Of a stretch of DNA of 64,000 nt, positions 129 through 32,189 are shown in pieces. The DNA lies in the NCBI GenBank assembly GCA_964610465.1, contig CAZSWA010000001.1, positions 15,023 through 79,022 on the forward strand, written 5' to 3'. The notes under the pieces are model-generated. The model saw only the letters and a program-made list of their open reading frames with translations. It did no database searches and was not told where the DNA came from. The position numbers and the translations under genes are program-made. Numbering within the stretch: position 1 is the stretch's first letter; each line of letters opens with the position of its first letter. The stretch is from an uncultured Gammaproteobacteria bacterium (GTDB lineage: Bacteria; Patescibacteriota; Microgenomatia; Levybacterales; UBA12049).

Positions 129-1658
129 ATGGTTCACTATACAACTAAAAATGTAGAAGGCAAACTTATTCTGTTTGCGACAATTTTGGCAAGCGGAATG
201 GCGTTTCTGGATGGGACAGTTGTGAATATCGCAATTCCTGCCATCCAAACGAAACTTAACGCTACAATTTCAGGAATTCAATGGGTAGTCAATGGATATT
301 TGCTTATGCTTTCAGCGCTTATCCTAATAAGTGGAGCACTCGGAGACAGGTTTGGGAGAAAACGTATTTTCCTTTTTGGCATAGGACTTTTTACTGTTTC
401 ATCATTTCTTTGCAGTATTTCTCATTCGATTGAACAATTGGCGTTATTTCGTGCAATACAAGGAATAGGCGGGGCAATGATGGTACCTGGAAGTTTAAGT
501 ATTATCAATTCTTCATTTGATGAAAAAGTTCGAGGACGGGTAATTGGCCTTTGGTCTGGACTTGCAGGAGGAGTTGCAGCACTTGGACCATTTGTGGGTG
601 GATGGCTCGTGCAATATTTTGGCTGGCCGGCAATTTTTTATATCAATATTCCAATTGGACTTCTTGCCTTATTTATTACCTTTCGTTTTGTGCCGGAAAC
701 CAAAAATAACGATGCAACAAGAGTAGATATTGTGGGTTCTGTACTTATTTTCTTATCTCTTCTAGGAATAGTCTATGCATTAATCTCAGGCACAGATATT
801 GGATGGACAAATCCACGTATACTTTTAAGTCTTATTGGTGGCATTGTGTTATTTGTAGTGTTTCTTATTGTACAAACCAAGATAAAAGAACCACTTGTTC
901 CACTTACGATTTTCAAATCTCCTTTGGTAACCGGTGCCAATATTGTCACACTCTTTTTGTACTTTGCGTTAAGTGGAGTTATATTTTTTCTTGTCTTAAA
1001 TCTTCAACAGGTACAGCATTATTCACCAATTATCTCAGGTCTTGGACTTTTACCTACCATTCTTCTTATTACTTTTCTTTCAGGACCTGCAGGAAGTTTA
1101 GCAGATAAAATTGGACCACGAATCCCAATGATCATTGGTCCGTTTATTGTTTCAATCGGGATGGCGCTTCTTGTACTTCCCGGAATCAATGCCAATTATT
1201 TTCTTGGCTTTCTGCCAGGACTTATTCTTTTTGGAATTGGAATGTCATTTGTAATAGCACCTCTTACCAAATCCGCTCTTTCAGTTGAGAATAAATATTC
1301 AGGTACTGCATCAGGAGTCAATAATGCTGTTGCCAGAATTGCAGGTCTTTTGGCTGTTGCCTTGCTTGGGGCAATAGTAGTATTTCTTTTTGGAATAAAA
1401 CTTAGAGAGCAGCTTTATGGGTCAAATATGAATAGTGCAGCCCAACAACAGATTCTTTCTCAAGAAAATAAACTAGGTGGGATAGAAATGCCGGCAAATT
1501 TTGATATACAAACCAAAGCACTTGGGCGTAGTGCCGTTGATGAATCATTTGTGTATGCGTTTCGGTGGGCGATGAGTATCAATGCAGTTCTTGCTTTCTT
1601 GAGTGCAGTGGTAGCATTTTTTACTATTCATCCAAATCGCGTAAAGCGTTCTTCTTGA
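129..1658 (+). CDS. MFS transporter, DHA2 (14-TMS drug:H+ antiporter, EmrB/QacA-like) family
   Basis: 509 aa, about 14 predicted TM helices. N-terminal MFS signature region (GMAFLDGTVVNIAIP...GALGDRFGRKR) and large loop between TMS 13-14 are typical of DHA2. Confidence 0.8.
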   Translation: MVHYTTKNVEGKLILFATILASGMAFLDGTVVNIAIPAIQTKLNATISGIQWVVNGYLLMLSALILISGALGDRFGRKRIFLFGIGLFTVSSFLCSISHSIEQLALFRAIQGIGGAMMVPGSLSIINSSFDEKVRGRVIGLWSGLAGGVAALGPFVGGWLVQYFGWPAIFYINIPIGLLALFITFRFVPETKNNDATRVDIVGSVLIFLSLLGIVYALISGTDIGWTNPRILLSLIGGIVLFVVFLIVQTKIKEPLVPLTIFKSPLVTGANIVTLFLYFALSGVIFFLVLNLQQVQHYSPIISGLGLLPTILLITFLSGPAGSLADKIGPRIPMIIGPFIVSIGMALLVLPGINANYFLGFLPGLILFGIGMSFVIAPLTKSALSVENKYSGTASGVNNAVARIAGLLAVALLGAIVVFLFGIKLREQLYGSNMNSAAQQQILSQENKLGGIEMPANFDIQTKALGRSAVDESFVYAFRWAMSINAVLAFLSAVVAFFTIHPNRVKRSS

Positions 1659-1689: not shown

Positions 1690-2049
1690 ATGAAAGAAGT
1701 CGTCAGACGCATTAATTATTTCTCAACTGCTTTTGTCAGTATTCTTGGCTTTTCTTTAACTTCTGAAATTTTTCAGGAAGATGATTTTGTGGATAAGATT
1801 GATGATATTCTCATGCTTCTTTTGAGCATTGGCGTGATTATCTGGTATAAGAAGAAAGGTTACAAAGCAGAAAAGACTGCTATGTCTTTACTTGCAGTAG
1901 GTATAGGATTAGTGATTAAAATTATAGCTATCGTCATTGAACACGCAGATAAAGAAGCAGTTGGAGATGATATCGGTATTATGGTTGGATTAGTCCTCGC
2001 ATTTGCCTTTGTCCTCTGGCACACTCTTGGTCTTCGAAAAACAAAATAA
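1690..2049 (+). CDS. small integral membrane protein, unknown function
   Basis: 119 aa ORF with 3-4 hydrophobic segments. No recognisable motif. Confidence 0.4.
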   Translation: MKEVVRRINYFSTAFVSILGFSLTSEIFQEDDFVDKIDDILMLLLSIGVIIWYKKKGYKAEKTAMSLLAVGIGLVIKIIAIVIEHADKEAVGDDIGIMVGLVLAFAFVLWHTLGLRKTK

Positions 2050-2077
2050 GATTCCTGAAAAAAAAGTGAGAGAAGAA

Positions 2078-2545
2078 TTATTGAACAATAAGAGTTCCCT
2101 TCATGCCCTTCTCAGCATGTGAATCAACGGTACACATATATTCAAATGTACCTACTTTATCAGCAGTAAACTCAATGCTATCTGTTTCTCCCGGTTGAAG
2201 AGTCTTAGTATGAAGATTTAAATCTGAAATGGTAAAGTTGTGAGGATATTTTCCTACATTCTTGAAAGTGATTTTTATTGTTTGACCTTTTTTAACCGTA
2301 ATACTTGACGGAGAAAATGAAAATTCGTTTCCTGCGACTGTAAGCTCTTGAGTCATCATGCTTGGAGATATACTGGAGGAAGAACTTGCTGATTCCTGCA
2401 TTGTAGTAGGCGATGCCGTCATTGCAGTTGGTGAAGGATTTGCAGCAACAGGTATCTGATGCATAATAGAGCTCCTTTGCATATAAAGCACAGCCACGCC
2501 ACCTAACAAAAGAAGAAGTACAATTACAATAATTACGTTCCTCAC
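2078..2545 (-). CDS. membrane-anchored cupredoxin (plastocyanin/azurin-like blue copper protein)
   Basis: N-terminal TM anchor, Ser/Thr/Pro-rich linker, C-terminal cupredoxin fold with type-1 Cu ligands (H..., C-T-V-D-S-H...M: YMCTVDSHAEKGMKG). Confidence 0.7.
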   Translation of the reverse strand: MRNVIIVIVLLLLLGGVAVLYMQRSSIMHQIPVAANPSPTAMTASPTTMQESASSSSSISPSMMTQELTVAGNEFSFSPSSITVKKGQTIKITFKNVGKYPHNFTISDLNLHTKTLQPGETDSIEFTADKVGTFEYMCTVDSHAEKGMKGTLIVQ

Positions 2546-2632
2546 ATTTTTACTATACAGTAATTATTATAAACATTGTGTAAGAAAAATAAAAGAGATT
2601 TATATATACTTTCAGCTGTTTTTCAGATTTGC

Positions 2633-2641
2633 TGGTATAAT
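2633..2641 (+). promoter_or_regulatory. extended -10 element (TGGTATAAT), 9 nt upstream of response-regulator start; near-leaderless
   Basis: Sequence tggtataat at 2633-2641; ATG at 2650. Confidence 0.3.
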
Positions 2642-2649
2642 CTGTAGTT

Positions 2650-3327
2650 ATGAGAATTTTAGTCATTGAAGATGAACATAAAATTGCCAATTCTATAAAA
2701 AAAGGTCTTGAGCATGAACGATATGCGGTAGATATAGTATATGAAGGTACAAGTGGATTTGACTATGCAAGAAGTGAGGAATATGATCTTATCATTCTTG
2801 ATAGATTGCTTCCTGGAATGGATGGGATAGACATCTGTAAAAATTTAAGAAGCCAAGGAATTCATACTCCTGTCTTAATGCTGACTGCCAAAGGACAAAT
2901 TGAAGATAAAGTAGAAGGGCTCAATAATGGAGCTGATGATTATATGGTGAAGCCGTTTGCATTTTCCGAATTATTTGCACGAGTACGCGCTTTAACCAGA
3001 AGACCAAAAGGAACTACAGACGCAGTTCTTACTATTGATAATTTATCCCTTAATACCATTACTTTTGAAGTAAAGCGGAATGGAAATTTAGTACAATTAT
3101 CCAGTAAAGAATTTTCACTGCTTGAGTATATGATGCGTCATCAAAATAGGATTCTTACTAAAGAACAAATTATGAATCATGTGTGGAGTTATGATGCTGA
3201 TGTATTACCAAATTCAGTTGAAGTCTATATTAAGCATCTTCGGGATAAAATAGATACTCCATTCTCATCGCCACATCTTATCCATACAATTCGCGGGTTT
3301 GGGTATAAAATAGGAATAGCTACCTAA
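2650..3327 (+). CDS. OmpR/PhoB-family two-component response regulator (receiver + winged-helix)
   Basis: 225 aa. Receiver motifs (D...DLIILD..LPGMDG...LMLTAKG), C-terminal winged-helix trans_reg_C. Confidence 0.85.
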   Translation: MRILVIEDEHKIANSIKKGLEHERYAVDIVYEGTSGFDYARSEEYDLIILDRLLPGMDGIDICKNLRSQGIHTPVLMLTAKGQIEDKVEGLNNGADDYMVKPFAFSELFARVRALTRRPKGTTDAVLTIDNLSLNTITFEVKRNGNLVQLSSKEFSLLEYMMRHQNRILTKEQIMNHVWSYDADVLPNSVEVYIKHLRDKIDTPFSSPHLIHTIRGFGYKIGIAT

Positions 3328-3328
3328 T

Positions 3329-4343
3329 ATGTTTGAATCAGCAAGACTTAAGCTTACTGCATGGTACCTCCTTATAATTATGTTTATCAGCATGTTGTTT
3401 AGTGTGGCATTCTATAATGCATCAACGCGTGAAATTCAAAGAGTTATTCGAAGATTACAATATATTCAGAATCAACTAAACACTGGTATTTTTTTTATCG
3501 CGCCACCTCTACCTAATGTCCCTACTGTTCAAGAATTACAAGAATCTGAATATCGGTTAATTCTTGTTCTTGTATTTATTAATACCGGTATTGTGCTTCT
3601 TGCTGGAGGAGCAGGATATTTTTTGGCTGGCAGAACTCTCAAGCCAATTAAGGAAATGGTTGATGAACAGAATAGATTTATTGCAGATGCATCTCATGAG
3701 TTAAGAACTCCGTTAACTGCACTTCGTTCTGAAATGGAAGCAAGTCTTTTTGAAAAACAAATGCGACCAAAAGATGTGAAAGCGCTTATCAAAAGTAATC
3801 TTGAGGAAGTGATGCATTTGCAGCTTTTATCAGATAATTTACTTCAACTTGCCCACTATCAAAATCAGAATACAAAATACACATTGAAAGATATTTCACT
3901 CCTTCAAGTAGTTGAGAATGCTTTAAAACGGATTACTCCAATAGCTAAAAGAAAACGTATCCTTATTAATAATGAAATAAATGATGTAACCTTAGTAGGA
4001 GATGCACATAGTCTCACTGAGCTTTTTGTAATTCTACTTGATAATGCAATAAAATATAGTGAACCAGAAAAACTAATTCTTCTTTCATCTAAAAAAAAAA
4101 GACAATTCGGTAGTTATTTCAGTTAGTGACAATGGAATAGGAATAGATAAAAAAGATATTTCTCATATCTTTGATAGGTTTTATAGAGTCAGTACATCAC
4201 GAACTAAAACAGATGCATCAGGATATGGTCTGGGATTATCAATTGCCAAAAAAATTGTTGATGAACATACAGGAATAATATCAGTACAAAGTGCATTAGG
4301 AAAAGGAACGACATTTACTATTAAGCTTCCTATAAAGCAATAA
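3329..4343 (+). pseudogene. sensor histidine kinase (HAMP-less, HisKA + HATPase_c) interrupted by a frameshift in an A10 homopolymer (3329-4126 and 4127-4343 frames)
   Basis: HisKA H-box (ASHELRTPLTALRSE) in first frame. G1/G2 ATPase boxes (VSDNGIGIDKKDISHIFDRFYRV...GYGLGLSIAKKIV...GKGTTFTIKLP) only readable after a -1 shift at aaaaaaaaaa (4089-4098). Confidence 0.7.
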
Positions 4344-4375
4344 TTCATACTTTTTATTCAGTTTAATTTCAGTTT

Positions 4376-4403
4376 TTGACAGTAGGATAAATTGATATAC
4401 AAT
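4376..4403 (+). promoter_or_regulatory. sigma70-like promoter (TTGACA-16-TACAAT) upstream of FMN-bind/apbE/oxidoreductase operon
   Basis: ttgaca 4376-4381, tacaat 4398-4403. Confidence 0.35.
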
Positions 4404-4423
4404 AGAAAATACATTATCCGTTT

Positions 4424-4891
4424 ATGAAAAAAATACTTGTTGGTGCTGCCATTTTTTTTGTCTTTATCGCATATGCGCTTTTTGAGAGACGAGGAAATAC
4501 ATTGTCATTATCAACCAATGTGAACAACAATACTGATACTACAAATACGAATATCAATAATCCTTCCGGTGCTCCTAGTCCTACAAGCAGTAATCAAAAA
4601 AAACAAGGGACATATAAAGATGGAACCTATACAGGAAATACAGAAGATGCTTTTTATGGAAATGTACAAATCCAAGTTACCATTAGCAATGGAAAAATAA
4701 CTGATGTTCAATTTCTACAATATCCAAATGATAGACGTGAATCAATGCAAATTAGTAATTATGCAATGCCTTCTCTTAAACAAGAAGCAATTCAAGCACA
4801 AATCGCGAATGTTGATATTGTAACAGGCGCAACTCAAACCAGTCAGGCGTTTATTGACTCACTCACTTCTGCACTCTCTCAAGCGCAATGA
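4424..4891 (+). CDS. extracytoplasmic FMN-binding domain protein (FMN_bind; substrate of ApbE flavinylation)
   Basis: 155 aa, N-terminal signal/anchor, low-complexity linker, FMN_bind domain with flavinylation motif D-I-V-T-G-A-T (DIVTGATQTS). Confidence 0.75.
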   Translation: MKKILVGAAIFFVFIAYALFERRGNTLSLSTNVNNNTDTTNTNINNPSGAPSPTSSNQKKQGTYKDGTYTGNTEDAFYGNVQIQVTISNGKITDVQFLQYPNDRRESMQISNYAMPSLKQEAIQAQIANVDIVTGATQTSQAFIDSLTSALSQAQ

Positions 4892-5628
4892 AACATACAC
4901 GTCTTCTCATGGGTATGCCCATAACAATCGAGATTGTTGATGAGACTGCAACAGTAAAAGATATCGAAGATATTTTCAGTTATTTTGTTTTAATTGATGA
5001 ACGTTTTAGCACATACAAACCAGAAAGTGAAATTTCTAAGATCAACAGAAGGGAAATTCAGGAAAAAGAGTATAGTCAAGATATGCGGGAAATCTTTTTA
5101 TTAAGTGAGCAAACCAAAAATGAAACAGATGGGTATTTTACTATTGTCCATAATGGACAAATTGACCCTTCAGGAATTGTCAAAGGCTGGTCAATTTTTA
5201 GAGCGTCTCAGATCTTACAACAGAAGGGATTTGCCAATTTTTATATCGATGCTGGTGGAGATGTGCAGGTATCTGGGAAAAATGCAAAAGGACAGATGTG
5301 GAAAGTTGGGATTAGAAATCCTTTTGATAGTACCACTATTGTCAAGACACTTAGACTTTCTGAGAAAGGAATAGCAACTTCAGGAACCTATGAGCGAGGA
5401 AAGCATATTTATAACCCACATCAAAAAGACGAAGTACAAAATATCGTAAGTATTACCGTAATTGGTCCTAATGTCTATGAAGCAGATAGATTTGCAACTG
5501 CTGCCTTTGCCATGGGAGACAAAGGGATTTATTTCATTGAAAAGCTTTCAGGCTTTGAAGGGTATATGATAGATAAAGATGGGAATGCAACAATGACAGG
5601 AGGTTTTAAACAGTATGTTTCAGAATAA
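4888..5628 (+). CDS. apbE: FAD:protein FMN transferase (ApbE family)
   Basis: 246 aa. ApbE family features (GIVKGWS, DAGGD, GIATSGTYERG). Start overlaps upstream stop (ATGA), indicating translational coupling. Confidence 0.8.
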   Translation: MKHTRLLMGMPITIEIVDETATVKDIEDIFSYFVLIDERFSTYKPESEISKINRREIQEKEYSQDMREIFLLSEQTKNETDGYFTIVHNGQIDPSGIVKGWSIFRASQILQQKGFANFYIDAGGDVQVSGKNAKGQMWKVGIRNPFDSTTIVKTLRLSEKGIATSGTYERGKHIYNPHQKDEVQNIVSITVIGPNVYEADRFATAAFAMGDKGIYFIEKLSGFEGYMIDKDGNATMTGGFKQYVSE

Positions 5629-7141
5629 AATTATAGAAAGTATTGATTATGTGCTTAACAGGGTTACCATGTATCGTTTGATACTCTACTATCTTATTGG
5701 TCTTCTGTGTGCAGCAATGGTTTTAAGCCTCATACATGCTCTTTCCTTTAGTCCATTTTCTCTGCTTGTTTCTGTAGTTTTTCTTCTGGTAATCTCATGG
5801 ATTGCCAACACCATTCTGGCAAAATTATTCAAAGCTCAAACCAATTTTGAATCAGTGTATATTTCCGCATTAATTCTCGCATTAATTGTAAGTCCAGCAA
5901 AAGTTTCTCATGATTTCGTTTTTTTGGGATGGGCTGCTGTCTGGACCATGGCATCAAAATATATTGTTACTCTTAATCGTAAGCATCTTTTTAATCCTGT
6001 TGCGTTTGGAGTGTGGTTTGCCGGGATAGGACTTCAGAATTCAGCCATCTGGTGGGTAGGAACTGGTGTCATGGTGCCATTTGTATTTCTCGGAGGGCTT
6101 TTAGTGGTAAGAAAAATTCAACGTGCAGATTTAGTAGCAAGTTTTTTACTTGTTGCACTTATCACCATGACTGGATTTAGTCTATTACATGGGAATAATC
6201 TTTTTACTTCTTTAACAAGAGAACTGTTGGAAACACCGCTTTTCTTTTTTGCATTTGTTATGCTTACTGAACCTCTGACAATTCCTCCAACCAATAAGTT
6301 GCAGCAGTATTATGGAGGAATAGTAGGATTTCTTTTTGCTCCTCAGGTTAATTTATTAGGATTTTTTACTACACCTGAACTTGCACTTCTTTTGGGTAAC
6401 CTTTTTGCCTATTATGTAAGCCCTAAAATAAAACTATTTTTGCATCTTAAAGAGAAAATACCGATTGGACCAAATATTTTTGATTATGTCTTTGTGCCCA
6501 ACAGGCAACCTTCATTTACTCCTGGACAGTATATGGAATGGACACTTGCACATCCTCATTCAGATGCAAGAGGTACGAGAAGATATTTTACGTTAGCATC
6601 ATCTCCTACTGAAGATACGGTACGAATAGGAGTACGATTTTACGATACAAAAAGCAGTTATAAAAAAAGGCTTCTTAGTCTTGACAGTAACAAGGAAATT
6701 ATTGCGTCGCAAATAAGCGGAGATTTTGTGTTACCTAAAGATGCATCTCAAAAATTGGTCCTTATTGCAGGAGGAATTGGCATAACTCCTTTTCGGAGCA
6801 TGATAAAGTATCTTTTGGATACCAATCAAAAGCGTACAATTACTTTATTCTATTCAGTGAAAAGTCCAGACGAGTTAGTGTATAAAGATATTTTTGATGA
6901 GGCAGCTGCCAAACTCGGAATAATTCCAATTTATACTGTTACAGATAAAAATGCGCAGTGGAATGGAAGAATGGGAAGAGTTACAAAAGAAATGATAGAA
7001 CAGGAAGTACCGGATTACAAAGAACGGATATTTTATCTTTCAGGACCGCAACAGATGGTTAAAGGATTTGAGCAGACTCTAAAGGATATGCATATCCCGG
7101 AGAAGTACATTAAAAAAGACTATTTCCCAGGTTTTGTATAA
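5615..7141 (+). CDS. membrane-anchored FNR-like NAD(P)H oxidoreductase (polytopic N-domain + FAD-binding FR-type + NAD-binding domain)
   Basis: 508 aa. About 8 TM helices, then ferredoxin-reductase-type motifs R-x-Y-T-L-A-S (RRYFTLASSP) and GGIGITPF. Overlaps apbE by 14 nt. Confidence 0.7.
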   Translation: MFQNKIIESIDYVLNRVTMYRLILYYLIGLLCAAMVLSLIHALSFSPFSLLVSVVFLLVISWIANTILAKLFKAQTNFESVYISALILALIVSPAKVSHDFVFLGWAAVWTMASKYIVTLNRKHLFNPVAFGVWFAGIGLQNSAIWWVGTGVMVPFVFLGGLLVVRKIQRADLVASFLLVALITMTGFSLLHGNNLFTSLTRELLETPLFFFAFVMLTEPLTIPPTNKLQQYYGGIVGFLFAPQVNLLGFFTTPELALLLGNLFAYYVSPKIKLFLHLKEKIPIGPNIFDYVFVPNRQPSFTPGQYMEWTLAHPHSDARGTRRYFTLASSPTEDTVRIGVRFYDTKSSYKKRLLSLDSNKEIIASQISGDFVLPKDASQKLVLIAGGIGITPFRSMIKYLLDTNQKRTITLFYSVKSPDELVYKDIFDEAAAKLGIIPIYTVTDKNAQWNGRMGRVTKEMIEQEVPDYKERIFYLSGPQQMVKGFEQTLKDMHIPEKYIKKDYFPGFV

Positions 7142-7485
7142 AGCATGTTTTTTAAGTTCATTTTCAGTTTATACTTCTACAATAGCATAACTATATGATT
7201 TAAAATAAATGTATGAAGACAATAGTACAAAAATTATCTTCTAGTTTGATTGCATGCTTCCTCTCGTATCCTGTGGTTTTAGTAAATTCATCAAGAATAA
7301 CTATTTTCTCTTTCTTTTTTGCATGATTTAAGGAGGCAACATACTCTTTATCTCCTTTCATCACCCCCTTCCTCTTTCGGTGTCAATTACTCGTGAGGCA
7401 ACAATGATACTACGGTGTCATTCTTAATGAGTCAAATCGCCTATCGTGAAACTGTTGTAGTATTTGGTATAATAGCGAAGTTGTA

Positions 7486-9555
7486 TTGAGAAGGTTATTT
7501 CAAATGAAAACAAAGCTCTCAGCTTCAAAAATACACAAGAGCGACAGTTCCACAAGTACTCATAAAGCACTGGATAGTAAAAAATATTTCCATGCACTTA
7601 TTGAGCATAGTTCTGATGCTATTGCTCTTATTAATCCTGTTGGAAAAGTACTCTATGCTTCAGCTTCTACAAAGCAAATTTTAGGATATACACAGAAAGA
7701 ATTTGTGGGAATGAATGGGTTTGCTTTGGTACATAAACAAGATCTTCCAAAGGTCATGAAGGAGTTATCAAAAATACTTCTTCATAAAGGGAGTACTGTA
7801 GTAGTTGAGGTAAGAGTAAAACATAAGAAAGGGTATTATATTTGGGTTGAAGCCAAGGGAACTAATCTGCTCTTTGATAAAAATGTTGGTGCTATTGTCG
7901 CTAATTTTAGAGATATTACTGAACGAAAAAATACAGAAGAAAAACTCAAAGCAAACGAAGAGCAGTTCCGTTTACTTTTGGAACATAGTGCAGATGCAAT
8001 AACACTTATCGATAAAACAGGAAAAAGAATCTATTCAACACCTTCCCGGAAAAATATTTTGGGATATGATACAAATGATGATATTGGAGAAAGCGTATTT
8101 ACCAATATTCATCCAGATGATGTAAATATAGTCAAAAAAAATTTTTCAGAGGTAGCAAAATATCCAAACAAAAGTCTTAGCCTTGCGTTTCGTATAAAAC
8201 ATAAAAAAGGTCACTGGGTTTGGATAGAAACAACAGGAACAAATCTTTTGCATGTTCCTCATATTGAAGCAATTGTTGTAAATTATCGTGATATTACGAA
8301 AAGGAAAGAAGATGAGGAACGCAATAAATTTCTCGAACAAGCAAGCAATATTCTTGGTACATCAATTGATTATGAAGTCACATTAAAAAATATTGCAGAA
8401 CTTATTGTTCCAAGACTCGCAGATTATTGCCGCATTGTTACTGTTGATGAAAATAAAATAATAAAAGAAATCGCAGTAAAACACGTCAATCCTAAAAAAC
8501 AGAAACTTGTCAGGGAACTTTATAAAAATTATAAAGATGGAGTAAAAACTACTCATGGAGTAGAAAAAATGCTTCAAACTGGAAAATCAGAACTTATGAA
8601 AGAAGTAAATGAAGAAATTTTAGAAGTTTTTAAAGATTCTCCTCAATTGATAAAAGTAATAAGACAATTAGGACTTATTTCTTATATGGGCGTCCCAATG
8701 AAAATTGGTGAAAAAATTGTAGGCACTATTGTTTTTTCGTCAGTACAAAAAGAAAGATTATATACGCAAGAAGATTTACGTCTTGCTGAGGAATTAGCAA
8801 GACGAGCTGCCTATGCAGTTGAAAATGCACGACTTTATACAAATGAACAAAAAGCAGTAAAACTTCGTGATGAATTCATTTCAATTGCCTCGCATGAGCT
8901 TAAAACTCCAATTACCAGTCTTAAACTCTATACAGAAATTTTACAAAGACAACTTGATAAGCAGAGTGAATTAAGTGGAGCGACCCAACCTTTAGAAAAA
9001 ATGCAAGATCAGATTAATAAGCTTACGGCACTTATCAATGATTTACTCAATGTGTCACGAATTGAGTCGGGGAAATTGATTTTCAATAACGAACGTTTTT
9101 CTCTTATGGAAGTAATCAAAGAAACAGTTGAGATAGTTCAATCCAATGCACTAAAACATAGAATTATAGTAAAGGGAACTATAGATAAGAAAGTATATGG
9201 AGATAGATATCGAATTTATCAGGTGTTGGCAAATCTTCTCTTAAATGCAATAAAATATTCTCCAAATGCTGATGAAGTTATTGTGCATGTAATGCCAGGT
9301 AAAAAAGAAGTAACTGTTGCAGTACAGGATTTTGGAATTGGGATTGATGAAAAACAACAACATAAAATATTTAATCGTTTTTATAGAGTAGATAATCCAC
9401 AAGAGAAAACTTTTCCAGGACTTGGACTCGGACTGTATATTTCCAATGAAATTATCAAGAGACATGGAAGTGTAATTCACGTAGTGAGCAACAGAGGAAG
9501 CGGTTCTGAGTTTAGTTTCACACTTCCATATGCAGAGAAAATGAAATTAAATTAA
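7486..9555 (+). CDS. soluble multi-sensor histidine kinase (2x PAS, GAF, HisKA, HATPase_c)
   Basis: 689 aa. Repeated PAS-like blocks (HSSDAIALINPVGK / HSADAITLIDKTGK), H-box SHELKTPITSL, G-boxes (DFGIGIDEK...GLGLGLYIS). Confidence 0.8.
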   Translation: MRRLFQMKTKLSASKIHKSDSSTSTHKALDSKKYFHALIEHSSDAIALINPVGKVLYASASTKQILGYTQKEFVGMNGFALVHKQDLPKVMKELSKILLHKGSTVVVEVRVKHKKGYYIWVEAKGTNLLFDKNVGAIVANFRDITERKNTEEKLKANEEQFRLLLEHSADAITLIDKTGKRIYSTPSRKNILGYDTNDDIGESVFTNIHPDDVNIVKKNFSEVAKYPNKSLSLAFRIKHKKGHWVWIETTGTNLLHVPHIEAIVVNYRDITKRKEDEERNKFLEQASNILGTSIDYEVTLKNIAELIVPRLADYCRIVTVDENKIIKEIAVKHVNPKKQKLVRELYKNYKDGVKTTHGVEKMLQTGKSELMKEVNEEILEVFKDSPQLIKVIRQLGLISYMGVPMKIGEKIVGTIVFSSVQKERLYTQEDLRLAEELARRAAYAVENARLYTNEQKAVKLRDEFISIASHELKTPITSLKLYTEILQRQLDKQSELSGATQPLEKMQDQINKLTALINDLLNVSRIESGKLIFNNERFSLMEVIKETVEIVQSNALKHRIIVKGTIDKKVYGDRYRIYQVLANLLLNAIKYSPNADEVIVHVMPGKKEVTVAVQDFGIGIDEKQQHKIFNRFYRVDNPQEKTFPGLGLGLYISNEIIKRHGSVIHVVSNRGSGSEFSFTLPYAEKMKLN

Positions 9556-14251: not shown

Positions 14252-14791
14252 TTATTCAGATTTAGTAATATCTCTATATTTTTCCAAAAGTTTTCTTATT
14301 TTTGGATCAATAACTACCTGGCAATAAGGGTAGGTGCGGTTGTTATCATAAAAATCCATATGATAGTCTTCAGCTTTATAGAAATTGGTAAATGGTACAA
14401 TTTGGGTAACAATCGGATCTTTATAGACTCCTTCTTTTTCAATTTTCTTTTTGGATTCTAAAGCTTCCTTTTTCTGTATTTCATCATGATAAAAAATGAC
14501 TGAACGGTATTGAGTCCCTACATCATTCCCTTGTCGGTTAAGAGTAGTCGGGTCATGTAAGTGCCAGAAAATTTCCAAAAGCTTGTCATATGAAATACTA
14601 TTTGGATCAAATTCAATTTGTATTGCCTCAGCATGACCTGTGGTGCCAGAAGATACTTCTTTATAGGTTGGATTCTCTTTGGTGCCACCTGCATAGCCAG
14701 AAGTTATAGATATAACTCCTTTTAGTCTTTTAAATATTGCTTCTGTACACCAGAAACATCCGCCTGCAAGTGTTGCTTTTTGTGTTTCCAT
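14252..14791 (-). CDS. msrA: peptide-methionine (S)-S-oxide reductase MsrA
   Basis: 179 aa. Active-site GCFWC motif (LAGGCFWCTEAIF), GYAGG. Confidence 0.85.
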   Translation of the reverse strand: METQKATLAGGCFWCTEAIFKRLKGVISITSGYAGGTKENPTYKEVSSGTTGHAEAIQIEFDPNSISYDKLLEIFWHLHDPTTLNRQGNDVGTQYRSVIFYHDEIQKKEALESKKKIEKEGVYKDPIVTQIVPFTNFYKAEDYHMDFYDNNRTYPYCQVVIDPKIRKLLEKYRDITKSE

Positions 14792-14792
14792 A

Positions 14793-15555
14793 TTACTTTC
14801 TTAACTCCATTTTGCATTTTGTACAAATTCCAAAACTGTGACTTACAAAATAATCTCCATAATCATGCAATTTAAAATCCTGAATTTGTGCAACTAAATC
14901 AAAAAGTGCTTGCTCCAACTCTGATGTATAGTCAATCGCAAATTCTTTTTGTGGATATTTCAGTATCCCGTATGTAGGGCGCATACCATAATTCTCCTCC
15001 ACTAAGTGACAATATGCAATAAGCTGCATTACATGATTTTTATAAGGAGTAAGAGGAGTTTTTCCTGTTTTTATTTCAATTGGGATTATACTTTTTTTCT
15101 TCTTGATAAGATAATCAGGTTTGCCAATAAGAGGCAAAAGAGAGGATTCAAGAATACTTCCTGGTATTTGTGTTGAATCCTGATAAATAAGTTTTCCTTG
15201 TAAACTTCCCATGCTTCGTCTTTTCAAAAAAAGCATTAAGTTTAGGAGCAGACAAACTAATAGGAGAAAAAACGATATGAGAAAAAGATAAAAAAGTATA
15301 GATTAAAATTTAAAAAATAATTGTAATAGAAACAGTATGGCAACAAAGAGTAATAAGCAAAAGGTAGATACAAAAAGAATTACTTTCAGTCGTGCAAATT
15401 TTATGAGTCTTATGGCGAGGGCATCATGGTAGAGAGTACCTTTGTACATCTCATCATTTACTTCACGCAGTGCATGGAGTCCTTTCCAGAAACACTGTCT
15501 ACAATAAATAAACTCATTAATCTTGCTGGCTTTTACAATAGTTTTGGCAGTCACA
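14793..15555 (-). pseudogene. Cas4-like (DUF83, RecB-family PD-(D/E)XK) nuclease, apparently split into N-terminal (15303-15555) and C-terminal (14793-15236) fragments
   Basis: N-fragment has the Cas4 N-terminal Cys motif (INEFIYCRQCFWKG). C-fragment has RecB nuclease motifs D (PDYLI), ExK (IEIKTGK), QxxxY (QLIAYCHL) and terminal C-x2-C. The two are separated by about 20 out-of-frame codons rich in A/T homopolymers. Confidence 0.5.
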
Positions 15556-31374: not shown

Positions 31375-31860
31375 ATGTCCTTGACTATTTCTATTAAGAG
31401 ATTTAATATATTTTCTATGAAACAGAAATTCTATTCATTGTTCTTTTCTTTTCTTCCAATCCAAATAGCTTATGCCCATTGTGATGTGCCTTGCGGTATT
31501 TATGACCCAAAGCCCGCACAAATTGCCGCAGCAACAGTGCTTAAGATGGTGCAACTTATTGAAGCATTACCCAAAGAAAATCCGTCAGTCAATGATAGAA
31601 ATAAATTTGTCAGATGCGTATGGACTAAAGAAGAACATGCGAGAAAATGCAAAGAAGAACTTCTTATTCTCTGGACTGATTATTTCAAACCCGAACATCT
31701 TTCAAAATTTCCAAATCTGCATGATACCTTTTGGAAAGCAGCTAAACTTTGTTCAATCAACAAACAGGAAGTAAGTCTTGAACATGCACAAGAACTGGTC
31801 AAGGCAGTAGATGAAATAGCGCATATGTTTGAACAAGCAAAAGCTGCTACCAGTAAATAG
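31375..31860 (+). CDS. sodN: nickel-containing superoxide dismutase precursor (Ni-SOD)
   Basis: Propeptide followed by the Ni-hook HCDVPCGIYDP at the predicted mature N-terminus. Four-helix-bundle body (LWTDYFKPEH...). Confidence 0.85.
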   Translation: MSLTISIKRFNIFSMKQKFYSLFFSFLPIQIAYAHCDVPCGIYDPKPAQIAAATVLKMVQLIEALPKENPSVNDRNKFVRCVWTKEEHARKCKEELLILWTDYFKPEHLSKFPNLHDTFWKAAKLCSINKQEVSLEHAQELVKAVDEIAHMFEQAKAATSK

Positions 31861-32189
31861 TGCGAAAGAAATATTTTTCCTCAGTGTTTTTCCGATTATT
31901 TCCTTTTGTACTTTTTAAAGTGAGCGGTATGAGCATGTCCCCTACTCTTAAGGATGGTGATACTGTTCTTGTAAACAAAATAGTCTATCTATTTTCAAAA
32001 CCCAAAATAGGAGAGATAGTAATTGCAAAAAATTCAGCAACACACACCTATATCATTAAACGAATTGCAAAAAAAGAGAAAGGAAACTATTTTTTGCTGG
32101 GAGATAATAAAAAAGAAAGTACTGATAGCAGAAGCTATGGATGGTTTAGGTATCAAGATATTGTAGGGAAAGTGATATACTTAAGGTAA
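31860..32189 (+). CDS. sodX: Ni-SOD maturation peptidase SodX (S26 signal-peptidase-like)
   Basis: 109 aa. S26-type Ser box (GMSMSPTLKDGD) and Lys box (YIIKRI). Start overlaps sodN stop. Confidence 0.7.
   Translation: MRKKYFSSVFFRLFPFVLFKVSGMSMSPTLKDGDTVLVNKIVYLFSKPKIGEIVIAKNSATHTYIIKRIAKKEKGNYFLLGDNKKESTDSRSYGWFRYQDIVGKVIYLR

What the first reader, a model, noticed from the sequence alone, without database searches (positions are those of the whole stretch)
2078..7141. Extracytosolic flavin-based electron-transfer module (FMN_bind + ApbE + membrane FNR-like reductase) next to a two-component system and a cupredoxin
Seen in sequence: three translationally coupled genes (4424-4891, 4888-5628, 5615-7141; overlaps of 4 and 14 nt) with their own TTGACA/TACAAT promoter. 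The first is a secreted/anchored FMN_bind protein carrying the flavinylation motif DIVTGAT. The second is the ApbE flavin transferase that installs FMN on that Thr. The third fuses an 8-TM domain of unrecognised type to a ferredoxin-NADP reductase-like FAD/NAD(P) module (RRYFTLASSP, GGIGITPF). Immediately upstream are an OmpR-type response regulator and a histidine kinase, and, divergently, a membrane-anchored type-1 copper cupredoxin. Established knowledge: ApbE/FMN_bind pairs mark extracytosolic redox systems (NQR, RNF, and flavin-based extracellular electron transfer in Firmicutes). Inference: in a genome whose other genes look like a reduced, CPR-like organism (normally without respiratory chains), this is a candidate route for moving NAD(P)H electrons to an external flavoprotein and possibly on to the cupredoxin or oxygen. 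The adjacent Ni-SOD elsewhere in the window supports oxygen exposure. The TM domain of the reductase lacks obvious bis-haem His pairs, so it is not a canonical ferric-reductase domain and may be a new architecture.
Basis: partly seen in the sequence, partly recalled or inferred. Interest (0 to 1): 0.72.

Follow-up and report, generated by a model that had tools for sequence, protein, structure and literature searches.

The report
Known NQR/RNF-like flavin electron-export operon
The three genes are a real member of the published but untested "NQR/RNF-like" system, a two-protein flavin wire thought to carry electrons from NAD(P)H across the membrane, so the architecture is not new, though its flavin-attaching enzyme seems to sit on the wrong side of the membrane.

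Summary
All genes, the 4- and 14-nt overlaps, the DIVTGAT motif and the TTGACA-16-TACAAT promoter are where stated.

The three-gene operon recurs in about 70 of 80 related loci from Chloroflexota and Patescibacteria. The cupredoxin recurs in none, so its adjacency looks incidental.

Two points go beyond the two papers I read:
- **Regulation:** an operator-like direct repeat (TTTCAG-N5-TYTCAG) sits before both the operon and the response-regulator gene, here and in related Patescibacteria loci. This links the two-component system to the operon.
- **ApbE location:** the ApbE of this family has no signal peptide in any of 74 loci, yet its substrate is predicted to lie outside the cell. This is unexplained.

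The electron acceptor is unknown. Verdict: new member of a known, experimentally untested kind; moderate-to-low interest.

The parts
4376..4403 (+). Sigma-70-type promoter-like site TTGACA-16-TACAAT for the three-gene operon
   Evidence: Matches 11 of 12 positions and is the best site in 2000-7600. It is a consensus match only; the transcription start has not been shown.
4358..4372 (+). Operator-like direct repeat TCAGTTTAATTTCAG (ATTCAG-N5-TTTCAG, 11-bp period), 3 nt upstream of the -35 hexamer; predicted binding site of the adjacent OmpR-family response regulator
   Evidence: The pattern TCAGNTNNNTYTCAG occurs only twice in the 64-kb window. Expectation is 0.07, and 0 of 100 shuffles reach 2. 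The same box lies 19-50 nt upstream of the first operon gene in 12 related Patescibacteria-type loci.
4424..4891 (+). NqrC/RnfG-like FMN_bind protein: N-terminal membrane helix, about 45-residue N/T/S/P-rich linker, then the FMN_bind domain. The flavinylation motif D131-I-V-T-G-A-T137 is at nt 4814-4834; T137 is the predicted FMN acceptor.
   Evidence: PF04205, E 6e-11. NCBIfam PplA E 4e-8 and rnfG E 5e-5. PDB 8p2a_A matches at E 8e-14, with DIVTGAT aligned to DAVSGAT. The motif and the MKK-helix-linker layout are conserved in homologues. The N flank has net charge +1.5 and the C flank +0.2, which fits N-in/C-out.
4888..5628 (+). Short (246 aa) ApbE flavin transferase without a signal peptide or membrane anchor; its start overlaps the FMN_bind stop by 4 nt
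   Evidence: PF02424, E 6e-43. It aligns to E. coli ApbE 4xgw residues 45-105 and 162-320. An in-frame stop lies 10 codons upstream of the ATG. The ApbE genes recovered from 74 loci (73 related plus the window's own copy) share the start MKQTRLLMGMP, with no hydrophobic leader.
5615..6430 (+). NqrB/RnfD-like membrane domain of the fusion protein (about residues 1-272, roughly ten helices), lacking the flavinylated Thr motif of NqrB/RnfD
6431..7141 (+). Cytoplasmic ferredoxin-NADP-reductase-type FAD/NAD(P)H domain of the fusion protein (RRYFTLASSP, GGIGITPF)
2650..3327 (+). OmpR-family response regulator of the CopR/CusR/RppA-like subfamily; probable regulator of the operon
   Evidence: Response_reg plus Trans_reg_C. 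NCBIfam RppA 239.7 bits (cut-off 250) and heavy-metal regulator TIGR01387 231.8 bits (cut-off 279). Orthologues at 44-69% identity lie next to the operon in 10 of 34 non-Chloroflexota loci.
3329..4343 (+). Cognate histidine kinase, interrupted by a +1 frameshift in an A10 run at 4091-4100
   Evidence: The ORF stops at 4126. Removing one A gives a 337-aa kinase that aligns end to end with intact orthologues in L065, L030, L056, L002 and L050 at 47-52% identity. The split gene also appears in a Logan assembly of the same organism.
2612..2626 (+). Second copy of the operator-like direct repeat (TCAGCTGTTTTTCAG), 24 nt upstream of the response-regulator start, in the intergenic region shared with the divergent cupredoxin gene
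   Evidence: The same box lies upstream of the regulator gene in L030 and L065.
2078..2545 (-). Membrane-anchored type-1 copper cupredoxin; a neighbour that is probably not part of the system
   Evidence: Cupredoxin_1, E 2e-18. It has a single Cys with C-x4-H-x4-M spacing (read from the sequence). It is absent from all 80 related loci.

Best explanation
The operon at 4424-7141 is a member of the NQR/RNF-like flavinylation system. It is a minimal two-subunit transmembrane electron conduit plus its maturation enzyme.

**Shown here**
- The large subunit fuses an NqrB/RnfD-fold membrane domain to a C-terminal FNR-type FAD/NAD(P)H domain.
- The small subunit is an NqrC/RnfG-like FMN_bind protein. 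It has an N-terminal membrane helix and the ApbE target motif DIVTGAT.
- The middle gene is an ApbE flavin transferase.
- The three genes are translationally coupled, and they are conserved as a unit across Chloroflexota and Patescibacteria.

**Inferred mechanism**
1. NAD(P)H reduces FAD in the cytoplasmic domain.
2. Electrons cross the membrane through flavin site(s) held non-covalently in the NqrB/RnfD-like domain.
3. They reach the FMN that ApbE has esterified to Thr137 of the small subunit. That FMN docks at the outward-facing pocket that holds the covalent FMN in true NqrB/RnfD.
4. From there they pass to an unidentified extracytosolic acceptor.

Electron flow is one-way, unlike the semicircular path of NQR and RNF.

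**Regulation in this lineage (inferred)**
The adjacent CopR/RppA-like two-component system probably controls expression. Its predicted operator, a direct repeat TTTCAG-N5-TYTCAG, precedes both the operon and the regulator gene.

**Cupredoxin**
The cupredoxin next door is most likely an unrelated neighbour.
For: **Domain and fold assignments.**
- The AF2 model has pLDDT 84.4.
- A profile of the membrane domain hits RnfD at E 0.002.

**Published definition.** It is matched point by point (PMC8238504, sections 13 and 23; PMC11334425, section 9).

**Conservation.**
- FMN_bind, ApbE and the fusion gene occur in the same order in about 70 of 80 loci.
- In the flank clustering the fusion, ApbE and FMN_bind families were each found in 67-80 of 80 loci. 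The next most frequent families reached only 17 loci.
- The D-x-x-[ST]-G-A-T motif is conserved.
- No [ST]GA[ST] motif occurs in the membrane domain of any of 80 homologues, as Huang et al. reported.

**Topology.**
- The lysine/arginine-rich loops (NRKH 121-124, RKIQR 166-170, KIKLFLHLKEK 271-281) fall on the same side as the FNR domain.
- This puts loop 141-150, which corresponds to the FMN loop of NqrB, on the outside (plus the sequence).
- The flanks of the FMN_bind helix obey the positive-inside rule for an N-in/C-out orientation.

**Regulation.**
- The operator pattern occurs exactly twice in the window, against an expectation of 0.07.
- It recurs upstream of the operon, of the regulator gene and of a MacAB-like efflux operon in related Patescibacteria-type loci.
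- Orthologues of the two-component system are adjacent in 10 of 34 such loci.
Against: - Nothing about function has been tested experimentally, here or in the two papers.
- The acceptor is unknown, and no conserved acceptor gene is present.
- The ApbE has no signal peptide in any of 74 loci. In other bacteria a signal-less ApbE marks cytoplasmic flavinylation (review PMC12052999). That conflicts with a substrate domain located outside the cell.
- The PF03116 match is only just above the cut-off, so the assignment rests mainly on the fold.
- The operator is a sequence inference. The position weight matrix used to extend it was trained on the strict hits.
- The histidine kinase is frameshifted in this assembly, so the regulatory circuit may be broken here.
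Confidence: 0.75

Rival explanations
1. Cytoplasmic-flavoprotein variant. The signal-less ApbE flavinylates the FMN_bind domain in the cytoplasm and the domain stays there, tethered by its helix. It acts as an internal carrier between the FNR domain and the NqrB/RnfD-like domain. That membrane domain alone would then carry electrons to a membrane or external acceptor.
For: - The ApbE lacks any signal peptide or anchor in 74 of 74 loci, and an in-frame stop leaves no room for one here.
- Signal-less ApbEs are known to serve cytoplasmic targets (PMC12052999, section 6).
- The FAD substrate of ApbE is cytoplasmic.
Against: - The charge distribution around the FMN_bind helix (N flank +1.5, C flank +0.2) and the Ser/Thr/Pro/Asn-rich linker fit an N-in/C-out exported domain.
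- By homology the flavin pocket of NqrB/RnfD faces outward.
- The published AlphaFold-multimer model docks the small subunit's flavin site at that pocket (PMC11334425, section 9).
Confidence: 0.15
2. This is a new membrane architecture that passes NAD(P)H electrons through the external flavoprotein to the neighbouring cupredoxin, and possibly on to oxygen.
For: - The cupredoxin is membrane-anchored, has type-1 copper ligands, and is divergently adjacent.
- Electron transfer from FMN to blue copper is thermodynamically downhill (established knowledge).
- Ni-SOD and MsrA in the window point to oxygen exposure.
- One operator box lies in the intergenic region shared by the cupredoxin and the regulator gene.
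Against: - The architecture is already described (PMC8238504, PMC11334425).
- No cupredoxin is present in any of 80 related loci.
- The two cupredoxin relatives found lack the operon.
- No oxidase or other partner that could reoxidise the cupredoxin is in the window.
Confidence: 0.07
3. The system is a metal-responsive extracellular reductase, acting on Fe(III), Cu(II) or another metal or toxic oxidant. It would be switched on by a heavy-metal-type two-component system. This refines the best explanation by naming the acceptor class.
For: - The best family matches of the regulator are RppA and the heavy-metal regulator family cztR_silR_copR, both just below their cut-offs. The kinase's best match is RppB, far below its cut-off.
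- The same operator precedes a MacAB/CusB-like efflux operon in L056 and L065.
- The cupredoxin's best NCBIfam match is the copper-resistance protein CopI, though far below its cut-off.
- Méheust et al. found VIT1 iron transporters in six such clusters (PMC8238504, section 13).
Against: - All family matches for the two-component system are below their curated cut-offs.
- The kinase has only about a 45-residue external loop, with no recognisable metal-sensing domain.
- No metal transporter is conserved beside the operon.
Confidence: 0.25
4. The genes are a remnant or a subcomplex of a canonical NQR or RNF complex whose other subunits are encoded elsewhere in the genome.
For: [quoted passage not shown]
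- NCBI names some homologues 'RnfABCDGE type electron transport complex subunit D'.
Against: - No other NQR/RNF subunit is in the 64-kb window.
- The covalent-FMN threonine of NqrB/RnfD is missing in 80 of 80 homologues.
- The direct fusion to an FNR module replaces NqrF/RnfC.
- The three-gene unit is conserved on its own in about 70 genomes.
Confidence: 0.03

Closest known systems
NQR/RNF-like flavinylation-associated system (Méheust et al. 2021, eLife, PMC8238504; Huang et al. 2024, mSystems, PMC11334425; modelled from Ktedonobacter racemifer)
   Same: - The two subunits are the same: an NqrB/RnfD-like membrane domain fused to PF00175, and an NqrC/RnfG-like FMN_bind protein.
- An ApbE gene sits in the same cluster.
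- The membrane domain lacks the flavinylated Thr.
- The system occurs in the candidate phyla radiation.
- The window protein is 51-61% identical over its full length to homologues, including those of the Ktedonobacteria genera Dictyobacter and Ktedonospora.
   Different: - There is no difference in architecture.
- Local features are not mentioned in those papers. These are the linked CopR/RppA-like two-component system with its operator, the neighbouring cupredoxin, and the frameshifted kinase.
- My term searches of the two texts found no discussion of the family-wide lack of an ApbE signal peptide.
Na+-translocating NADH:quinone oxidoreductase (NqrA-F) and the RNF complex (RnfA-E, G)
   Same: - The small subunit is NqrC/RnfG-like, and its FMN is installed by ApbE.
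   Different: - There are two subunits instead of six.
- There are no NqrD/E or RnfA/E iron-sulphur subunits and no NqrA or RnfB/C.
- The NqrB/RnfD-like domain carries no covalent FMN.
- The FNR module is fused directly to the membrane domain.
- The proposed electron flow is one-way and outward. It does not follow a loop back to quinone, ferredoxin or NAD+.
- Ion pumping has not been shown.
Flavin-based extracellular electron transfer of Listeria and other Firmicutes (Ndh2, EetA/B, DmkA/B, FmnB, PplA)
   Same: - An ApbE-type enzyme flavinylates an extracytosolic FMN_bind protein that receives electrons from NADH.
- PplA is the best NCBIfam match of the small subunit (E 4e-8, far below its cut-off).
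   Different: - Listeria uses Ndh2 and a dedicated quinone pool to cross the membrane, and FmnB is secreted.
- Here a flavin-only NqrB/RnfD-like conduit is fused to the dehydrogenase, no quinone genes are evident, and the ApbE has no export signal.
MsrQ-like / ferric-reductase-domain flavinylation systems and NOX-type reductases
   Different: The membrane domain here has no bis-haem histidine pairs and a different fold (NqrB/RnfD rather than the six-helix ferric-reductase domain).

Membership tests
NQR/RNF-like flavinylation system (Méheust 2021 definition) | [quoted passage not shown] | tested here: met
   [not shown]
NQR/RNF-like flavinylation system (Méheust 2021 definition) | C-terminal cytosolic NAD-binding domain PF00175 on the same polypeptide | tested here: met
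   [not shown]
NQR/RNF-like flavinylation system (Méheust 2021 definition) | [quoted passage not shown] | tested here: met
   FMN_bind and ApbE lie immediately upstream and overlap the next gene. The FMN_bind protein has an N-terminal MKK-plus-hydrophobic-helix leader. SignalP itself was not run.
NQR/RNF-like flavinylation system (Huang 2024 description) | The flavinylated Thr motif of NqrB/RnfD is absent from the membrane domain | tested here: met
   None of 80 homologues, including the window protein, has [ST]GA[ST] in the first 300 residues. The corresponding loop reads QNSAIWW.
NQR/RNF-like flavinylation system (Huang 2024 description) | A small NqrC/RnfG-like subunit carries the ApbE target motif, and its flavin docks on the membrane subunit | tested here: inconclusive
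   The motif DIVTGAT is present and conserved. Docking was not tested, because the tools offer no multimer prediction or access to coordinates.
NQR/RNF-like flavinylation system | NAD(P)H-driven electron transfer to an extracytosolic acceptor | not testable with these tools
   This needs biochemistry. It is also untested in the literature I could search.
Canonical Na+-NQR / RNF complexes | Six-subunit complex with NqrD/E or RnfA/E, and a covalent FMN on the NqrB/RnfD threonine | tested here: not met
   No other subunits are in the window or in the related loci. The Thr motif is absent. The rest of this genome could not be examined.
ApbE flavin transferase (PF02424) | ApbE catalytic domain | tested here: met
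   PF02424, E 6e-43. PDB ApbE structures match at E 1e-18 to 1e-12.
ApbE flavin transferase (extracytosolic type) | N-terminal signal peptide or lipobox that places the enzyme outside the cytoplasm | tested here: not met
   The protein starts MKHTRLLMGMPITIE, at the beginning of the mature-domain alignment. An in-frame stop lies 10 codons upstream. The same holds in 74 of 74 loci.
Type-1 (blue) copper cupredoxin | Cupredoxin fold with His, Cys, His and Met copper ligands | tested here: met
   Cupredoxin_1, E 2e-18, and Copper-bind, E 1e-12. The sequence shows H in PHNF and C-x4-H-x4-M in YMCTVDSHAEKGM. Copper binding was not tested.

The most novel reading that the evidence does not exclude
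The family-wide lack of an export signal on ApbE is real. It would mean that these monoderm lineages (Patescibacteria, Chloroflexota) attach FMN covalently to the small subunit in the cytoplasm and then export or insert the already flavinylated protein. That would be a maturation route for extracytosolic flavoproteins that needs no FAD export. In Patescibacteria, which usually lack respiratory chains, this flavin-only two-subunit wire would then be a main route for disposing of NAD(P)H electrons. It would be switched by a metal- or redox-sensing two-component system through the TTTCAG-N5-TYTCAG operator.
Probability: 0.25. Interest if true: 0.6.

Novelty: new member of a known kind. Interest (0 to 1): 0.3.

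Why it matters
**As it stands, this is routine.** The finding adds one more Patescibacteria example of a system that was defined bioinformatically in 2021 and modelled in 2024. The claim of a new architecture should be dropped.

**The system itself is still worth attention.** No member has been studied experimentally. It may be one of the few membrane redox devices available to CPR bacteria, which generally lack respiratory chains.

**Two results here could guide experiments.**
- **A regulatory handle:** a conserved operator links the operon to a CopR/RppA-like two-component system in Patescibacteria. Finding the inducing signal could point to the acceptor.
- **A maturation puzzle:** the ApbE of this family never carries an export signal, although its substrate is predicted to lie outside the cell. 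Either the accepted topology is wrong, or flavinylation precedes export.

Tried and rejected
- **Cupredoxin as partner.**
  - tblastn of the cupredoxin against 80 related loci found nothing.
  - A metagenome scan found only two relatives.
    - L082 has no part of the operon.
    - L083 looks archaeal. It has a soluble FNR-like gene after the cupredoxin, but no NqrB/RnfD-like domain, FMN_bind or ApbE.
  - I rejected the cupredoxin as a conserved component.
- **A conserved terminal acceptor gene.** Clustering all flank ORFs from the 80 loci found only the three operon genes in most loci. Next came the two-component system (17 loci under a loose criterion), generic ABC transporters, an SDR and MacAB-like efflux genes. 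No acceptor emerged.
- **Other NQR/RNF subunits or a second, secreted ApbE in the window.** None was found.
- **A hidden N-terminal extension of ApbE.** This is excluded by the in-frame stop 10 codons upstream. In other loci the apparent 'longer ORFs' merely run back into the FMN_bind gene in another frame and are not hydrophobic.
- **Source record.** An exact-sequence lookup gave no names or accessions. Phylum assignment therefore rests on the S3 and operon homologues.
- **Supplementary table of Méheust et al.** The NQR/RNF-like sheet is cut off in the stored copy, so their signal-peptide calls for these ApbEs could not be read.
- **AlphaFold database fold search.** The library was unavailable.
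- **Shared long words between the two intergenic regions.** None of 8 nt or more was found. The operator was seen only after comparing upstream regions across loci.

Full report
**1. The observation**

They are the cupredoxin 2078-2545 (-), the response regulator 2650-3327, a histidine kinase starting at 3329, FMN_bind 4424-4891, ApbE 4888-5628 and the reductase 5615-7141. The overlaps are 4 and 14 nt.

Pfam confirms every domain call:
- Cupredoxin_1, E 2e-18
- Response_reg plus Trans_reg_C
- HisKA
- FMN_bind PF04205, E 6e-11
- ApbE PF02424, E 6e-43
- NAD_binding_1 PF00175, E 1e-19

DIVTGAT is residues 131-137 of the FMN_bind protein. In a PDB search it aligns with DAVSGAT of a solved FMN-binding domain (8p2a_A, E 8e-14). 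The promoter-like site TTGACA-16-TACAAT at 4376-4403 matches 11 of 12 positions and is the best such site in 2000-7600.

The context claims also hold. Ni-SOD with its S26 maturation peptidase lies at 31375-32189 and MsrA at 14252-14791. The closest named relatives of ribosomal protein S3 are 'Patescibacteria group bacterium' at 75-78% identity.

One correction is needed. The histidine kinase ORF ends early at 4126 because of a +1 frameshift in an A10 run at 4091-4100. Removing one A restores a 337-aa kinase (3329-4343). It aligns end to end with intact orthologues.

**2. What the third gene is**

It is not.
- Pfam reports PF03116 NQR2_RnfD_RnfE just above its cut-off (28.2 against 27.7 bits).
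- A profile built from 17 membrane domains of the family hits RnfD of Azotobacter (8ahx_D, E 0.002) and, weakly, NqrB.

The protein is therefore an NqrB/RnfD-like membrane domain fused to an NqrF-like dehydrogenase module.

**3. This architecture is published**

Méheust et al. (eLife 2021, PMC8238504, sections 13 and 23) define the 'NQR/RNF-like system' as a flavinylation-associated gene cluster that encodes a PF03116-PF00175 fusion. [quoted passage not shown] Huang et al. (mSystems 2024, PMC11334425, section 9) modelled the Ktedonobacter racemifer complex. They noted that the membrane subunit lacks the flavinylated Thr of NqrB/RnfD. They also found that the flavin site of the NqrC/RnfG-like subunit docks at that pocket.

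The window operon meets each sequence-level criterion (see the membership table). That includes the absence of any [ST]GA[ST] motif from the membrane domain in all 80 homologues examined. Full-text searches found no experimental study of the system, and no paper that combines Patescibacteria with ApbE.

**4. Comparative genomics**

- A homologue search returned thousands of hits. The best 120 are full-length, 54-63% identical, and carry source names such as 'RnfABCDGE type electron transport complex subunit D' or 'ferredoxin-NADP reductase/RnfD subunit'.
- The membrane domain alone finds 1302 representatives of 50%-identity clusters (349 at E no higher than 1e-30). Most are 490-515 aa long, which is the same fusion.
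- In one genome per species (GTDB), 80 loci were retrieved. About 46 are Chloroflexota. The rest are Patescibacteria: Levyibacteriota, Microgenomates, Daviesbacteria, Amesbacteria, Azambacteria, Saccharibacteria, Gracilibacteria and Wirthbacteria. That group also includes low-GC MAGs carrying automatic 'Gammaproteobacteria' labels.
- FMN_bind, ApbE and the fusion gene occur together, usually in that order, in about 70 of 80 loci. In the flank clustering, no other gene family is found in more than 17 of the 80 loci.
- No locus has a cupredoxin.
- The cupredoxin's own relatives were found in only two metagenome contigs, neither with the operon.

The cupredoxin adjacency is therefore best read as incidental.

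**5. Regulation**

Orthologues of the response regulator (44-69% identity) and of the kinase lie beside the operon in 10 of 34 non-Chloroflexota loci. The regulator scores highest against RppA (239.7 bits, cut-off 250) and the heavy-metal regulator family cztR_silR_copR (231.8 bits, cut-off 279). The kinase scores highest against RppB, far below its cut-off. The pair therefore resembles the CopR/CusR/RppA group but is not a certified member.

Comparing upstream regions across loci revealed a direct repeat, TTTCAG-N5-TYTCAG, with an 11-bp period. That period is typical of binding sites for OmpR/PhoB-type regulators.

In the window:
- The pattern TCAGNTNNNTYTCAG occurs exactly twice in 64 kb. 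Expectation is 0.07, and 0 of 100 shuffles reach 2.
- One copy is at 4358-4372, 3 nt upstream of the -35 hexamer of the operon promoter.
- The other is at 2612-2626, 24 nt upstream of the regulator's start codon.

In related loci:
- The strict pattern lies 19-50 nt upstream of the first operon gene in L004, L010, L011, L013, L050, L056, L060 and L065.
- Weaker versions, above the 99% level of a null distribution, occur in L021, L045, L007 and L016.
- The box also precedes the regulator gene in L030 and L065.
- It precedes a MacAB-like efflux operon after the kinase in L056 and L065.
- It is absent upstream of the operon in all 46 Chloroflexota loci. The only strict-pattern hit in a Chloroflexota locus is in L036, about 7 kb from the operon.

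I infer that the two-component system autoregulates and controls the operon in this lineage. The signal is unknown. This is sequence inference only, and the matrix used for the weaker hits was trained on the strict hits.

**6. Topology and the ApbE puzzle**

Several lines place the flavin hand-off outside the cell.
- The FMN_bind proteins begin with MKK or RK, then a hydrophobic helix, then a Ser/Thr/Pro/Asn-rich linker. The mean net charge is +1.5 before the helix and +0.2 after it, which fits N-in/C-out.
- In the fusion protein, the positively charged loops (NRKH 121-124, RKIQR 166-170, KIKLFLHLKEK 271-281) fall on the side of the cytoplasmic FNR domain.
- That puts loop 141-150, which corresponds to the FMN loop of NqrB, on the outside.

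Yet the ApbE has no signal peptide.
- It starts MKHTRLLMGMPITIE, at the beginning of the mature-domain alignment to solved ApbEs.
- An in-frame stop lies 10 codons upstream of its start.
- ApbE genes were recovered from 74 loci: 73 related loci plus the window's own copy, L001. All share this start.

In other bacteria a signal-less ApbE is taken to mean cytoplasmic flavinylation (review PMC12052999, section 6). Three readings remain:
- FMN is attached in the cytoplasm and the modified protein is then exported.
- The FMN_bind domain is cytoplasmic after all.
- ApbE reaches the outside by an unknown route.

My term searches of the two papers found no discussion of this point. Their supplementary sheet for this system is truncated in the stored copy.

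**7. Mechanism**

*Shown:* the domain composition, the fold, the conserved motifs, the operon conservation and the predicted sidedness.

*Inferred, following the published proposal:*
1. NAD(P)H reduces FAD in the cytoplasmic domain.
2. Electrons pass through non-covalent flavin site(s) in the NqrB/RnfD-like domain.
3. They reach FMN on Thr137 of the small subunit, at the outward-facing pocket.
4. They pass to an external acceptor.

*Unknown:* the acceptor, NADH versus NADPH preference, the number and kind of flavins in the membrane domain, and whether any ion movement is coupled.

Conserved acidic residues such as E219 in LTEPLT align with the ATDP motif of NqrB/RnfD. This leaves ion coupling open but is not evidence for it. 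A metal-reductase role is suggested only weakly. The hints are the type of regulator, the co-regulated efflux pump, and the VIT1 association reported by Méheust et al.

**8. Verdict**

It is wrong about the novelty of the architecture and unsupported on the cupredoxin.

Novelty: a new member of a known, bioinformatically defined but experimentally untested kind. Interest: 0.3. The operator link and the signal-less ApbE are the two leads worth following.

Noticed in passing
window 3329-4343, A10 run at 4091-4100: The histidine kinase next to the operon is split by a +1 frameshift in a run of ten A. Removing one A restores a full-length 337-aa kinase that is collinear with orthologues. The split is also present in a Logan assembly of the same organism. 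It could be a homopolymer sequencing error, a pseudogene or a phase-variable switch.
   Followed up: partly
window 4888-5628, and the ApbE genes of 73 related loci (L002-L081): Every ApbE of this operon family lacks a signal peptide or membrane anchor (consensus start MKQTRLLMGMP). Its FMN_bind substrate is nevertheless predicted to be outside the cell. This is unexplained.
   Followed up: partly
window 2612-2626 and 4358-4372; L004, L010, L011, L013, L030, L050, L056, L060, L065: An operator-like direct repeat TTTCAG-N5-TYTCAG lies upstream of the operon, of the response-regulator gene, and (in L056 and L065) of a MacAB-like efflux operon. It occurs only in Patescibacteria-type loci.
   Followed up: yes
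Chloroflexota loci L009, L012, L015, L079, L053, L061, L069, L046, L023; about 83-103 nt upstream of the FMN_bind gene: A different 11-bp-period direct repeat (TTTCATCT-N3/4-TTCATCT or TGTCATCT, reminiscent of Pho-box-type sites) recurs upstream of the same operon in Chloroflexota. This hints at control by another OmpR/PhoB-family regulator.
   Followed up: no
L083 3400-4773: The closest-but-one relative of the cupredoxin sits on a contig that looks archaeal (FEN-1-like nuclease, family-B DNA polymerase, type-2 methionine aminopeptidase by eye). It is followed directly by a soluble 234-aa FNR-like gene, 31% identical to the FNR part of the window's fusion protein.
   Followed up: no
window 31375-32189 and 14252-14791: Ni-containing superoxide dismutase with its S26-type maturation peptidase, plus MsrA. 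These oxidative-stress genes are consistent with oxygen exposure of this Patescibacteria organism.
   Followed up: partly
window 129-1658; L004 1316-2842: The MFS transporter upstream of the region has a 61%-identical homologue next to the operon in L004, the second-closest related locus. This looks like local synteny rather than a functional link.
   Followed up: no
L003, L007, L008, L042, L075: Some related loci carry two FMN_bind genes beside the fusion gene. L075 and L076 have FMN_bind genes but no ApbE hit within the stretch held.
   Followed up: no
window 14793-15236: A small ORF with a Cas4/PD-(D/E)XK nuclease domain (E 6e-9) lies next to MsrA. No CRISPR context was examined.
   Followed up: no
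loci L002, L004, L016, L024, L028, L056, L065, L071: MAGs titled 'uncultured Gammaproteobacteria bacterium' carry the closest homologues of this Patescibacteria operon and of its two-component system. Their loci are low in GC (mean 0.38). The taxon labels are probably automatic misassignments.
   Followed up: no
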